Below, piece by piece: positions 6,001 through 9,000 of a stretch of DNA of 64,000 bases. Position 1 is the stretch's first letter. Every line of letters starts with the position of its first letter. Made by a program: the position numbers. The DNA is from Escherichia coli O157:H7. Its GTDB lineage: Bacteria; Pseudomonadota; Gammaproteobacteria; Enterobacterales; Enterobacteriaceae. The stretch is from assembly GCF_013167455.1 (NCBI RefSeq), contig NZ_CP038328.1. One strand, written 5' to 3'.

Positions 6001-9000
6001 CGGAACAAGATTCAGCGGCGTTGGCGTCTGGTTAGCCAGATAACGCTGATAAATCGACATTGCCCCGCTGGCTCCATACAGTTTGGTCGGCTGGTTGTTA
6101 TCACGGCCGACCCAGGTGATGGTCACCGTGCTGCCGTCAATGCCCGCAAACCAGGTATCTACGTTATTGTTGGTAGTCCCTGTTTTCCCTGCCAGATGCA
6201 GGTTCGGGTATTTCGCCCCAAGCTGACGACCCGTACCGCGTTGTACCACCTGCTGCATGGTCCATAGTGTCAGATACGCCGCCTGCGCCGGAACAGCGCG
6301 TTCCGCCTGCGGGAAGCTCTGATACAGCACTTTGCCATCTTCCGCGATTACCGAACGCAGCGCAGAAAGCGGTGCACGGTTACCACCGCTGGCGATGGTC
6401 TGGAATGCCTGCGCCACTTCGATTGGCGTTAAGTTCAACGCCCCCAGCAGCATTGCCGGAACCGGATGCAACTGATCTTTCGGTACGCCCAGTTTAATCC
6501 AGGTATCCGTAACCGCAGGCAGCCCCAGCGCCATCCCCAGATTTACCGTCGGCACGTTCATCGAACGGGTCAACGCATCCACCAGCATCACTCTGCCGCT
6601 TTCGCTATAACGACGGTCATCATTCTGCGGTGACCAGACCTGGCCATTCGGCTGACGCAGCGCAATTGGCGCATCCGCAATCCACGTATTCAGACGATAG
6701 ATTTTCGGCTGGCTTAAGGCCGTCAGATAAGTCGCTGGTTTTGCAAGGGAACCAATCGAACGACGCGCCTGCATCGCACGGTTGTAGCCCGCAAACTGCG
6801 GCTCAGAACCTCCGACCATCGCACGAACTTCACCACTAAAGCGGTCGACGACCACAATCGCAGTTTCAAGATCGCTCAACTTACGCTGTTTCTTCAGTGC
6901 CGGAATACCTTCCACGGCGGCTTTTTCTGCCGCGTCCTGGGCCACCGAGTCAAAGGTAGTGAAGATCTTCACGCCGGAGAGATCTTTTACCTTATCGCCT
7001 AATTTAGCCTGAAGCTCCTGACGCACCAGTTGCATAAAGGCTGGCTGAGGAGAGATCACCCCACCGCGCGGCTGAACCCCCAGCGGACGCGCACTCAACA
7101 TGTCATAGAGTTCTTGATCAATAATCTGTTGCTGTTGCAGCAGACGCAGTACCAGATTACGTCGCTCCAGCGCCAGTTTCGGGTTACGCCACGGGTTGTA
7201 GATGGACGCTCCTTTCACCATACCGACTAACAGCGCCTGCTGATCGAGGCTCAATTCTTCTACCGGGCGACCAAAGTAATACAAGCTCGCCAGCGGGAAG
7301 CCGCGGATTTCGTTGTCGCCGCTCTGACCGAGATACACCTCGTTCATATACAGCTCAAGAATACGGTCTTTGCTGTAACGCGCGTCCATGATCAGCGCCA
7401 TGTAGGCTTCATTCGCTTTACGCCAATAAGAGCGCTCGCTGGAGAGGAACAGGTTTTTCACCAGCTGTTGCGTCAGCGTACTCGCCCCCTGCACCGTGCG
7501 ACCTGCGGTCAGGTTTGCCAGCACCGCACGTCCGATGGAGTAGAGACTGATTCCATCATGCTCGTAGAAATGGCGGTCTTCTGTCGCCAGCAAAGTATCC
7601 ACCAGCAAATCCGGGAAACCACTGCGCGGCACAAACAAACGCTGCTCACCGTTTGGTGAGGAGATCATGGTGATCAGACGCGGATCAAGACGGAAGAAAC
7701 CGAACTGACGGTTGTTCTCCATATTGACGATGGTCGCCAGATGATCGCCATCAAAGGTCAGACGCGCGCGCACCTGCCCTTCTTTACTGTCCGGGAAATC
7801 AAACGGACGGCGAATCATCTCAATGCTGTTGGCCTGCACGGTAAATTCGCCAGGACGGGTCATTTTCGACACCTGACGATACTGTGTTGCCTCCAGCAGC
7901 TTCACCATCTCGTTCTTGCTGATGGTCATGTCTGGCTCAAGGTTGACCATTCGACCATAAACTGCCGCAGGCAGTTGCCAGACCTTGCCATCAATACGGC
8001 TACGAATTTTTTGATCGAGATAAACGCCGTAAATGGCGATCAGCACGGCAAAAACGATAGCCAGTTTTAACAGCAGCCATAGCCAGCCGCGTTTGCCACG
8101 AGGCTTACGCCCTTTGCCTTTGCCCTTACCTTTGCGCGGCATCGGTTCTTCATCCTCATAGTCATCATAATCGTCGTAATCATCGTCATCTTCGTAACGA
8201 CGACGGCTTACCTTTTGTTTGACCGGACGCGTCGGTTTCCCTTTGCGTCCAATTGGCTCGCGGTCATTCCCGGCCATGCTTTTTCTCCGCAATATTCAGG
8301 CGCAAAAGCCCGATTTTCTGTTCTTCTGTTACAAGACAGAAGAAGATATCTCTCAAAATTTGAGCTCGATCGGTCCCCTCTCCCTTAAGGGAGAGGGTTA
8401 GGGTGAGGGTGAACGTGCGCGCTGGTGCCCTCACCCCGGCCCTCTCCCACAGGGAGAGGGAGAAAACCAACCTTACGAATACTTTTTCGTCCGTCGCGTC
8501 GGTGCCGTGTTTGCCGGGTCGTCCGGCCAGACGTGTTTGGGATAACGCCCTTTCATCTCCTTTTGCACCTCACGATACGCCCCTTTCCAGAAGGCCCCCA
8601 AATCACGCGTGATTTGCAGCGGCCTTTGGGCGGGTGAAAGCAATTCCAGCACCAGCGGCACGCGCCCCTGGGCGATCGTCGGATTAGTGGCCTCACCAAA
8701 CATCTCCTGCATTCTCACCGCCAGCGCGGGCGGGTTATCTTCATGATAACGAATGGCGATCCGGCTTCCCGTCGGCACAGTGTAATGCGCAGGCAATTCA
8801 CTATCCAGACGTTGCTGCATTCCCCAATCAAGTAATCCGCGTAGTGCCTGATAAATGTCGAGTGATTTCAGGCCGCGTAGTGAATGTACACCGGCCATAT
8901 GTGGCAGCAGCCACGTTTCCAGCGTCGCCAACAAACTTTCATCATCAACCGCTGGCCAGTCATATTCTGGCAACCACTTTCCGGCGCATAACAAACGCAA

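What the first reader, a model, noticed from the sequence alone, without database searches (positions are those of the whole stretch)
8376..8461. Cluster of GC-rich palindromes upstream of mrcB, with related arms reused at two other hairpins
Three adjacent stem-loops (ccctctccc/gggagaggg twice, flanking gggtgaggg/ccctcaccc) fill the hrpB-mrcB spacer. The same ccctcaccc/gggtgaggg arm forms the aroP-ampE hairpin (52670..52695), and a cctctcc/ggagagg variant forms the hairpin after yadH (28446..28480). This suggests a small dispersed repeat family (boxC-like?) acting as terminators or RNA-stability elements.
Basis: seen in the sequence. Interest (0 to 1): 0.35.

Follow-up and report, generated by a model that had tools for sequence, protein, structure and literature searches.

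The report
Known BoxC repeat pair upstream of mrcB

Summary
Window 8376-8460 holds three perfect 9-bp inverted repeats (0 of 100 shuffles match). It is better read as two inverted three-block units (CCCTCNCCC-N3-6-GGGNGAGGG-N3-GGGNGAGGG): type A on + (8376-8409) and type B on - (8460-8428). With conserved flanks the element spans about 8362-8472. This is the BoxC/PIT/TMECO repeat. Holder et al. 2015 list this same hrpB-mrcB site in K-12 as TMECO no. 1 and 2.

New here:
- The element is dispensable. Of 5,426 E. coli genomes, about 60% carry the pair, 5% a collapsed single hairpin and 35% an empty site.
- The empty site is shared with E. albertii, so the element was probably gained.
- Other genera carry BoxC in the same slot in other orientations or copy numbers; Salmonella and Citrobacter carry REP there.
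- It has no U-tract. Public Term-seq still maps a weak RNA 3' end 5 nt past its foot, as at two other BoxC pairs. This fits a REP-like protective stem-loop better than a terminator.

The aroP-ampE hairpin is aroP's own single-copy 3'-end hairpin. The yadH hairpin is unrelated.

The parts
8362..8375 (+). Conserved 5' flank of the type A BoxC unit (GAGCTCGATCGGTC; family pattern about GCGCRC..atcGGTC)
   Evidence: Alignment of 16 units with flanks. The nhmmer hit of the K-12-trained profile starts at 8363.
8376..8409 (+). Type A three-block unit: CCCTCTCCC-TTAA-GGGAGAGGG-TTA-GGGTGAGGG. It equals K-12 TMECO no. 2 apart from one loop base.
   Evidence: Consensus match, Holder Table 1, alignment to K-12.
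8410..8427 (.). Central spacer between the two inverted units (tgaacgtgcgcgctggtg). It is 18 nt here against 28-29 nt in three other K-12 pairs.
   Evidence: Pseudocitrobacter faecalis carries the K-12 version of the core, catcagcgcgcacgtt, which differs from this window by one base.
8428..8460 (-). Type B three-block unit, read on the - strand: CCCTCTCCC-TGT-GGGAGAGGG-CCG-GGGTGAGGG. It is identical to K-12 TMECO no. 1.
   Evidence: Consensus match on the - strand, Holder Table 1, profile hit E = 2.1e-7.
8461..8472 (-). T-rich 5' flank of the type B unit (GGTTGGTTTTCT on the - strand), directly after the hrpB stop codon (8475-8473)
   Evidence: Type B units in K-12 share a GCACCGTTTTCT-like flank. 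hrpB ORF end.
8371..8371 (-). Position equivalent to the K-12 Term-seq RNA 3' end 164636(+), 5 nt past the last block (RNA ends ...GGGAGAGGGGACCG)
   Evidence: Adams et al. 2021 supplementary files 1 and 3. Coordinates mapped through alignment A1.
8278..8356 (-). Conserved mrcB leader, not part of the repeat. It starts at the TTGAGAGAT box and contains a covarying hairpin at 8321-8344. Every repeat insertion lies upstream of it.
   Evidence: 80-sequence alignment and pair counts. Spacer comparison.
52672..52696 (+). aroP 3'-end hairpin GCCCTCACCC-GTACA-GGGTGAGGGC followed by AATAATCTTT. Its arms equal a BoxC block but it is not a demonstrable family member. The K-12 aroP 3' end maps to window 52700.
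28449..28479 (-). Hairpin after yadH (TCCTCTCC ... GGAGAGGA, then GTTTTGA on the - strand). Unrelated to BoxC and unverified as a terminator.
   Evidence: Profile E = 5.5. The gene names yadH and yadG do not appear in Adams et al.'s 3'-end tables.

Best explanation
Window 8362-8472 is one composite BoxC element, also published as a PIT element and as TMECO. It consists of a type B and a type A three-block unit in inverted orientation around a short spacer, lying between the hrpB stop codon and the conserved mrcB leader.

Shown: it is a copy of a chromosomal, intergenic, multi-copy repeat family of Enterobacteriaceae. It is dispensable, because a third of E. coli genomes lack it. The empty site is shared with E. 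albertii and another Escherichia species, so the element was most likely acquired within Escherichia. Its internal direct and inverted repeats drive recurrent deletions: a 12-bp slippage deletion, and at least two independent collapses to a single hairpin.

Inferred mechanism: the element has no dedicated cellular function at this site. When hrpB transcription reads into it, the RNA folds into a very stable hairpin or hairpins with no U-tract. These act like a REP-type protective stem-loop: 3'-to-5' exonucleases, or processing after downstream termination, stop at the foot, which gives the minor RNA 3' end seen 5 nt past the last block. It is not a canonical intrinsic terminator. How the family spreads is unknown.
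For: Identity: the published consensus matches twice in inverted orientation, against 0 expected. The site is near-identical to the K-12 spacer that holds TMECO no. 1 and 2. A profile of 14 K-12 units from other loci hits at E = 2.7e-13 and 2.1e-7. There is a median of 8 places per genome, and 43,664 of 43,700 places are chromosomal. Conserved type-specific flanks bring each unit to roughly the 51-59 bp annotated as BoxC.

Dispensable and unstable: 1,885 of 5,426 genomes have the empty junction, 270 have a single collapsed hairpin, and about 3,265 have the pair. The alleles show deletion endpoints inside the repeated blocks and two different retained loops. This matches Holder's 'palindrome effect'.

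Gain: E. albertii and Escherichia sp. MOD1-EC7003 have the same 93-nt empty spacer as empty E. coli.

RNA level: the fold is -69.4 kcal/mol, z = -8, with no T-run. Term-seq 3' ends lie 5, 4 and 12 nt past the foot at hrpB-mrcB (164636), lldD (3781065; Rho region 'Yes', intrinsic score 1.3) and the fepB leader (624567). About 0.04 such hits are expected by chance, given at most 3,110 mapped 3' ends. Dar and Sorek 2018 show that stable stem-loops without U-tracts define and protect the 3' ends of Rho-terminated mRNAs. In Salmonella, Citrobacter and Leclercia the same slot holds REP palindromes.
Against: The Term-seq signal at this site is weak (score 987, against 70,000 for aroP) and was called in only one of three conditions, in K-12 and not in O157. 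No 3' end was found at the coordinate prefixes I checked for four single copies and two further pairs; uniquely-mapped-read filtering could hide some. The published PIT studies reported no promoter or terminator activity and no effect on RNA polymerase (summarised). No mRNA-stability measurement exists for BoxC. Filled versus empty alleles do not differ by a clean insertion with a target-site duplication: about 12 nt are replaced by about 125 nt, so the acquisition mechanism is unclear, and allele transfer by recombination is not excluded. One other Escherichia species (E1V33) carries the collapsed form with the same flanks.
Confidence: 0.8

Rival explanations
1. The element is a Rho-independent (intrinsic) terminator of hrpB, possibly bidirectional.
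For: The stems are very stable and GC-rich. An RNA 3' end is mapped 5 nt after the last stem in K-12.
Against: No T-run follows the structure on either strand, and the scan finds no terminator-like site. Adams et al. give an intrinsic-terminator score of 1.3, below their cut-off of 3, for the equivalent lldD BoxC 3' end. Published reporter assays found no terminator activity for PIT/BoxC elements. In Enterobacter-clade species a canonical hairpin plus T-run follows BoxC in the same spacer. 35% of E. coli lack the element.
Confidence: 0.08
2. The biologically relevant structure is the intrastrand DNA triplex (purine motif: C-block, G-block, G-block). It forms transiently in single-stranded DNA during replication, stalls polymerases and makes the locus recombination-prone. 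This is Holder et al.'s model.
For: Each unit has exactly the three-block architecture needed. CD and NMR show that isolated oligonucleotides form a triplex, and TMECO loci are more rearranged than controls. This locus is highly polymorphic.
Against: The same paper found no triplex in duplex DNA and no in vivo DMS protection. The deletions seen here all end in short direct repeats of the blocks, which ordinary slipped-strand or hairpin-mediated deletion explains without a triplex. The model does not account for the RNA 3' ends. It is not exclusive with the best explanation.
Confidence: 0.2
3. All three sites (hrpB-mrcB, aroP-ampE, yadH) are copies or remnants of one repeat family. The aroP and yadH hairpins would be collapsed BoxC remnants that now serve as terminators.
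For: The aroP arms are 9/9 identical to a BoxC block. BoxC pairs do collapse to single C-block/G-block hairpins. The aroP and yadH hairpins are the best-scoring sites outside the element when the profile is scanned over the 64-kb window.
Against: Those scores are not significant (E = 0.12 and 5.5) and cover only the stem-loop part of the model. There is no family flank (GGTC or TTTTCT) and no third block. The aroP hairpin is single-copy and structurally invariant in 5,369 genomes, including strains that lack the hrpB-mrcB element. CCCTCACCC is not used as the first block in any of the 23 K-12 units.
Confidence: 0.1
4. The element is a cis-regulatory part of the mrcB promoter or 5' UTR, acting as a protein-binding site or an RNA structure that controls PBP1b expression.
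For: It lies 98 nt upstream of the mrcB ATG. Holder et al. found TMECOs more often upstream than downstream of ORFs.
Against: A third of E. coli, together with E. albertii, Salmonella and Citrobacter, lack it, while the 80-nt mrcB leader directly downstream is conserved in 80 species. Orientation and copy number differ between genera. No promoter-like site was found, and no promoter activity was reported.
Confidence: 0.04
5. The palindromes are a chance cluster of GC-rich inverted repeats.
For: None beyond the small size of each arm.
Against: 0 of 100 shuffles give even one match to the two-block or three-block pattern. The same composite recurs at other K-12 loci and in other genera.
Confidence: 0

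Closest known systems
BoxC repeats of E. coli (Bergler et al. 1992; Bachellier et al.), also called PIT elements (Hoyne and Maher 2000, 2002) and TMECO intrastrand triplex motifs (Holder et al. 2015, PMC4666352)
   Same: Same three-block consensus, same type A (TTA loop) and type B (CCG loop) units, and same inverted A+B pairing. It is the same chromosomal site as TMECO no. 1 and 2 of K-12 (164,547-164,631). It is intergenic, chromosomal and multi-copy, and it shows the same collapse to a single stem-loop in some strains.
   Different: Nothing essential. The O157 copy differs from K-12 by one loop base and one spacer base. Added here: conserved type-specific flanks, allele frequencies in 5,426 genomes, the outgroup state, occupancy of the same spacer in other genera, and overlap with Term-seq 3' ends.
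REP/BIME (PU) elements of enterobacteria
   Same: Both are short, GC-rich, palindromic, intergenic and multi-copy, and often occur in inverted pairs. RNA 3' ends map at their foot. REP occupies the very same hrpB-mrcB slot in Salmonella, Citrobacter and Leclercia. REP is the established model for protective stem-loops.
   Different: The sequences are unrelated (REP: GCCGGATG...CCTTATCCGGCCTAC). BoxC has a purine/pyrimidine-asymmetric three-block design, far fewer copies (about 23-33 against about 300-500), no known RAYT-type transposase and no known binding protein.
Miniature inverted-repeat transposable elements (for example ERIC/IRU, Correia/NEMIS, RUP)
   Same: Size about 110-125 bp, overall palindromic, presence/absence polymorphism between strains, and independent occupancy of one intergenic slot in different genera and orientations.
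   Different: No target-site duplication or clean filled/empty boundary is seen at this locus. No cognate transposase is known, and the element is rarely found on plasmids.
Stable U-less stem-loops at the 3' ends of Rho-terminated mRNAs (Dar and Sorek 2018)
   Same: A strong stem-loop without a U-tract, with the steady-state 3' end a few nt downstream. The lldD BoxC 3' end lies in a Rho termination region.
   Different: Rho dependence and exonuclease trimming have not been shown for the hrpB-mrcB site.

Membership tests
BoxC / PIT / TMECO (element at 8362-8472) | Three-block consensus CCCTCNCCC-N3-6-GGGNGAGGG-N3-GGGNGAGGG | tested here: met
   Two exact matches, 8376-8409 (+) and 8460-8428 (-), against 0 in 100 shuffles.
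BoxC / PIT / TMECO (element at 8362-8472) | Sequence similarity to other genomic copies, including flanks (the 51-59 bp BoxC unit) | tested here: met
   An nhmmer profile of 14 K-12 units from ten other loci gives E = 2.7e-13 (8363-8413) and 2.1e-7 (8470-8423). Flanks are shared. BoxC length.
BoxC / PIT / TMECO (element at 8362-8472) | Dispersed, multi-copy, chromosomal and intergenic | tested here: met
   Median 8 places per genome, and 43,664 of 43,700 places on chromosomes. The element lies between hrpB and mrcB.
BoxC / PIT / TMECO (element at 8362-8472) | Paired sites combine one type A (TTA loop) and one type B (CCG loop) unit in inverted orientation | tested here: met
   Loops TTA and CCG, on opposite strands. 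Same rule as in K-12.
BoxC / PIT / TMECO (element at 8362-8472) | The orthologous site is listed in the published catalogue | tested here: met
   Holder Table 1 no. 1 and 2, at 164,547-164,631. Over the 180 nt of the window spacer, only three bases differ from K-12.
BoxC / PIT / TMECO (element at 8362-8472) | Single strand folds into an intrastrand purine-motif triplex | not testable with these tools
   Literature only: CD and NMR on oligonucleotides; not seen in duplex DNA or in vivo.
BoxC / PIT / TMECO (aroP-ampE hairpin 52672-52696) | Third G-block after an N3 loop | tested here: not met
   Only the two-block pattern matches. There is no three-block match.
BoxC / PIT / TMECO (aroP-ampE hairpin 52672-52696) | Family flanks and significant profile similarity | tested here: not met
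   Profile E = 0.12, model positions 15-37 only. The flanks CTACG/CAATA differ from GGTC/TTTTCT.
BoxC / PIT / TMECO (aroP-ampE hairpin 52672-52696) | Multi-copy and structurally polymorphic between strains | tested here: not met
   One place per genome and at least 95% identity in nearly all of 5,423 genomes.
BoxC / PIT / TMECO (yadH hairpin about 28449-28479) | Block consensus and profile similarity | tested here: not met
   No match to CCCTCNCCC ... GGGNGAGGG. Profile E = 5.5.
Intrinsic (Rho-independent) terminator (element at 8362-8472) | GC-rich hairpin immediately followed by a U-tract | tested here: not met
   The hairpin is present, but no T-run follows and no terminator-like site is found on either strand.
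Intrinsic (Rho-independent) terminator (element at 8362-8472) | Factor-independent termination activity | not testable with these tools
   The literature reports no terminator activity for PIT elements. A weak in vivo 3' end exists.
Intrinsic terminator (aroP hairpin 52672-52696) | Hairpin plus T-rich tail, and an in vivo 3' end at the tail | tested here: met
   The scan calls it terminator-like: 10 pairs, tail AATAATCTTT. The aroP primary 3' end at 120140(-), score 69,988, ends ...GGGCAAUA. The hairpin stays with aroP when an island is inserted next to it.
REP / BIME | REP consensus sequence | tested here: not met
   The element has no similarity to the REP consensus or to REP copies in the window, whereas the Salmonella and Citrobacter spacers do. 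The consensus was taken from memory (Stern et al. 1984).
MITE | Terminal inverted repeats with a target-site duplication at a clean filled/empty boundary | tested here: inconclusive
   The element is palindromic overall, but filled and empty alleles differ by replacement of about 12 nt, with no visible duplication.

The most novel reading that the evidence does not exclude
BoxC composites may be the functional and ecological equivalent of REP elements: a still-active, site-preferring intergenic element. It would repeatedly colonise the same permissive slot just after a stop codon and ahead of the next gene's leader. This slot is filled independently, in different orientations and copy numbers, in Escherichia, Enterobacter, Lelliottia, Leclercia and Pseudocitrobacter, and by REP in Salmonella and Citrobacter. 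Its RNA form would define and protect mRNA 3' ends. That would give a 30-year-old repeat with no assigned function both a molecular phenotype and an unknown mobilisation machinery to look for.
Probability: 0.25. Interest if true: 0.45.

Novelty: already known. Interest (0 to 1): 0.15.

Why it matters
As a discovery it matters little. The repeat family, this exact copy, its type A/B pairing, its in vitro triplex and its strain-to-strain instability are all published.

Three by-products may interest people who work on bacterial repeats:
- Public Term-seq data place RNA 3' ends at the foot of three of the five paired BoxC sites in K-12. This qualifies the published conclusion that these elements have no effect on transcripts, and it suggests a REP-like role.
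- The hrpB-mrcB spacer gives a natural allelic series (empty, single hairpin, pair, and tandem arrays in other genera) that could be used to test function and instability.
- The mrcB (PBP1b) leader just downstream carries a covarying hairpin with no Rfam family. It may be a more interesting object than the repeat itself.

Tried and rejected
- Rfam at gathering thresholds over the window: nothing at the element.
- K-12 RefSeq annotation of the spacer: no repeat feature listed.
- Promoter and terminator scan of the spacer: nothing.
- Rfam at relaxed thresholds on six outgroup loci, to confirm REP: no REP model hit. Replaced by local BLAST and alignment to the REP consensus.
- A second and third 3'-end dataset (Dar and Sorek 2018; Choe et al. 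2022): no supplementary tables are held.
- Term-seq 3' ends just downstream of the single copies next to tauD, adk, zntA and yjdP, and at both edges of the alx and gcvP/ygfF pairs (the downstream edge of the alx pair was checked): none at the coordinate prefixes checked. Only narrow windows were queried, so this is weak negative evidence.
- Literature search for work on BoxC/TMECO after 2015: none in the library.
- Reading the filled and empty alleles as a clean insertion with a target-site duplication: not supported.
- Considered and not run: fetching aroP-ampE orthologues from other genera.
- Triplex energetics cannot be computed with the available tools.
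Full report
**Setting.** The window is E. coli O157:H7 DNA, with a 100% match to many O157 chromosomes. It runs opposite to the usual K-12 orientation, so hrpB (10947..8473) and mrcB (8277..5743) are both on the - strand. The finding lies in the 195-nt spacer between them, directly after the hrpB stop codon.

**Observation.** It is accurate. CCCTCTCCC-TTAA-GGGAGAGGG (8376-8397), GGGTGAGGG-N18-CCCTCACCC (8401-8436) and CCCTCTCCC-ACA-GGGAGAGGG (8440-8460) are all present. None of 100 dinucleotide-preserving shuffles of the window yields even one such palindrome. The 9-mers occur 4 times each, against 0.2-0.4 expected.

**What it is.** The three palindromes are better read as two inverted copies of a three-block unit. 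The consensus published for the E. coli 'TMECO' motif, CCCTCNCCC-N3-6-GGGNGAGGG-N3-GGGNGAGGG, matches at 8376-8409 on + (second loop TTA, type A) and at 8460-8428 on - (second loop CCG, type B). No matches are expected by chance. Holder et al. 2015 (PMC4666352) state that this motif is the repeat first described as BoxC in the 1990s and rediscovered as 'PIT elements' by Hoyne and Maher. Their Table 1 lists TMECO no. 1 (164,547-164,580, type B) and no. 2 (164,631-164,597, type A) of K-12 MG1655. Those coordinates are the hrpB-mrcB spacer, and over the 180 nt of the window spacer only three bases differ from K-12.

I fetched ten other K-12 loci from that table. The consensus matches them at the stated coordinates (for the four paired loci, for all ten). 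Similarity extends beyond the blocks:
- Type A units are preceded by about GCGCRC..atcGGTC.
- Type B units are preceded by about GCACCGTTTTCT.
- Three of the four other pairs share a 28-29-nt central spacer.

Unit plus flanks comes to roughly the 51-59 bp annotated as BoxC in the original K-12 record (33 copies). A profile built only from those other loci finds the two halves of the window element at E = 2.7e-13 and 2.1e-7. The 97-bp element has a median of 8 BLAST places per E. coli genome, almost all chromosomal. Membership in BoxC/PIT/TMECO is therefore established. With flanks the element spans about 8362-8472.

**Structure.** As RNA, on either strand, the minimum-energy fold is a single nested hairpin of about 30 pairs (-69.4 kcal/mol on the hrpB-to-mrcB strand, z = -8). 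With DNA parameters the two are -33.0 and -29.0. Which form exists in vivo was not tested. Local hairpins forming first during transcription is my inference. The intrastrand triplex for which the family is known cannot be evaluated with these tools. The literature shows it for isolated oligonucleotides, but not in duplex DNA or by in vivo footprinting.

**Population and comparative data.** The spacer is polymorphic, and the alleles align cleanly.

| Allele | Genomes (of 5,426) | Evidence |
|---|---|---|
| Empty junction, including ST131 and NC101 | 1,885 | |
| Single hairpin CCCTCTCCC-loop-GGGAGAGGG with the element's outer flanks | 270 | |
| Pair, or small variants of it | about 3,265 | |

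- O145 RM8988 has a 12-bp deletion between CCCTC repeats.
- EH2252 and Z503 have collapsed to one hairpin but keep different loops (TGT and TCAA). These are therefore at least two independent deletions between the direct repeats.
- Holder et al. already described this collapse as a 'palindrome effect'.

A scan of one genome per species with MrcB returned 80 enterobacterial loci. I analysed 79 of them; L094 was left out because its match is cut off at residue 124.
- E. albertii and Escherichia sp. MOD1-EC7003 have the same 93-nt empty spacer as empty E. coli, which makes the empty state ancestral in Escherichia. Escherichia sp. E1V33 has the collapsed form.
- Of the 30 consensus matches in these 654 kb, 26 lie in this one spacer. 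They occur in Enterobacter, Lelliottia, Leclercia and Pseudocitrobacter.
- In the Enterobacter clade the orientation is A..B', opposite to E. coli, and often only the B' half is present.
- Pseudocitrobacter faecalis has 2.5 tandem copies of almost the same B..A' composite as E. coli.
- One unnamed enterobacterium has 16 blocks in a 509-nt spacer.
- Salmonella, Citrobacter youngae and Leclercia carry REP-type palindromes in the same slot.
- Every insertion lies upstream of a conserved TTGAGAGAT box that begins the mrcB leader.
- The filled and empty alleles do not show a clean insertion with a target duplication: about 12 nt are replaced by about 125 nt. The mode of acquisition stays open.

**Function.** The element has no T-run, and the scan finds no terminator-like or promoter-like site. 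The PIT studies reported no promoter or terminator activity. In several Enterobacter-clade species a canonical hairpin plus T-run follows BoxC in this spacer. It is therefore not an intrinsic terminator.

Public Term-seq data for K-12 (Adams et al. 2021, PMC7815308) nevertheless contain three relevant RNA 3' ends:
- 164636(+), ending ...GGGAGAGGGGACCG, 5 nt past the last block of this element. Score 987, M63 medium only.
- 3781065(+), 4 nt past TMECO no. 17 downstream of lldD. [quoted passage not shown]
- 624567(-), 12 nt past pair no. 8/7 in the fepB leader. Score 50,300.

The three datasets hold at most 3,110 3' ends. About 0.04 hits are therefore expected by chance in the ten 12-nt windows at the feet of the five pairs, or about 0.4 even allowing a tenfold intergenic enrichment. 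In all three cases the transcript ends with the antisense of a type A unit. Dar and Sorek 2018 showed that stable stem-loops without U-tracts mark and protect the 3' ends of Rho-terminated mRNAs, REP elements among them. The best-supported reading is that BoxC behaves, when transcribed, as a REP-like protective or processing boundary. This is inference. The signal here is weak, it comes from K-12, and several other copies showed no 3' end at the positions I checked.

**The two other hairpins.**
- *aroP-ampE (52672-52696).* Its arms equal a BoxC block. It has no third block and no family flanks, and its profile score is not significant (E = 0.12). It is single-copy and essentially invariant in 5,369 genomes, including those lacking the hrpB-mrcB element. 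The scan calls it terminator-like. It carries the strong primary 3' end of aroP (score 69,988, ending ...GGGCAAUA). It stays attached to aroP when an accessory island is inserted exactly at its 3' foot. It is aroP's own 3'-end hairpin. An ancient BoxC remnant cannot be excluded, but nothing supports it.
- *yadH.* This hairpin shares only a CCTCTCC core and scores E = 5.5. The gene names yadH and yadG do not appear in Adams et al.'s 3'-end tables. It is unrelated.

**Verdict.** The 'boxC-like' guess is correct. The terminator or stability idea is partly supported, as stability rather than termination. The link to the two other hairpins is not supported. The finding is already known and of low interest. 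The cross-genus reuse of the slot, the Term-seq coincidence and the covarying mrcB leader hairpin are minor by-products.

Noticed in passing
window 8278-8356 (- strand); hairpin 8321-8344: About 80 nt upstream of the mrcB (PBP1b) ATG are conserved in 80 Enterobacteriaceae loci, starting at a TTGAGAGAT box. A hairpin (TTCTTCTGT-loop-ACAGAAGAA) covaries: four pairs change on both sides (13-30 sequences each). 95% of cells are paired against 49-60% in slid controls, and 78 cells change on both sides against 27 in shuffles (0 of 500 shuffles reach the observed value). There is no Rfam family. It is a candidate 5'-UTR RNA element or palindromic operator.
   Followed up: partly
L006 position 251 (- strand) = K-12 624680: A very strong Term-seq 3' end (103,563 in LB, 243,213 in M63) in the fepB leader lies 4 nt before transcription enters BoxC pair no. 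8/7. The RNA ends ...GCGCAAUGUGAUGUCCUGCGCCGUUCU. Intrinsic score 1.4, not Rho-dependent. A small upstream hairpin, cleavage at the base of the long BoxC stem, or a block by the element could each explain it.
   Followed up: partly
L050 2625-2900 (Pseudocitrobacter faecalis); L065 2490-2900 (Enterobacteriaceae RIT691): BoxC composites are tandemly amplified in the hrpB-mrcB spacer: 2.5 copies with a period of about 126 bp, nearly identical to the E. coli composite, and 16 blocks in a 509-nt spacer.
   Followed up: no
L019 about 2870-2925 (E. coli SCPM-O-B-8794): A different, degenerate BoxC-like hairpin (cagtcCCCTCGGCCCtatgGGGAGAGGGagaaagcac) sits in the same slot in the opposite orientation. 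This suggests a separate acquisition.
   Followed up: no
L096 1601-1790; window 52696/52697: In about 54 E. coli genomes the aroP-ampE match breaks exactly at the 3' foot of the aroP hairpin. In the one genome examined, an accessory island (GPH symporter plus GH43 hydrolase) is inserted there.
   Followed up: partly
L031, L032, L065, L076, L087, L095 (about 2930-2975): Enterobacter-clade and Cedecea spacers have a canonical hairpin plus T-run terminator between BoxC and the mrcB leader. E. coli has none.
   Followed up: no
window 49826-49939 (+), 61214-61291 (-), 61694-61763 (-): Rfam gathering-level hits: tp2 sRNA, naRNA4 (REP-derived nucleoid-associated RNA) and STnc40. REP copies were also seen at about 34176-34251.
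   Followed up: no
L052 about 5554-5583; L065 about 5590-5624: A BoxC inverted pair also lies immediately downstream of the mrcB stop codon in two species.
   Followed up: no
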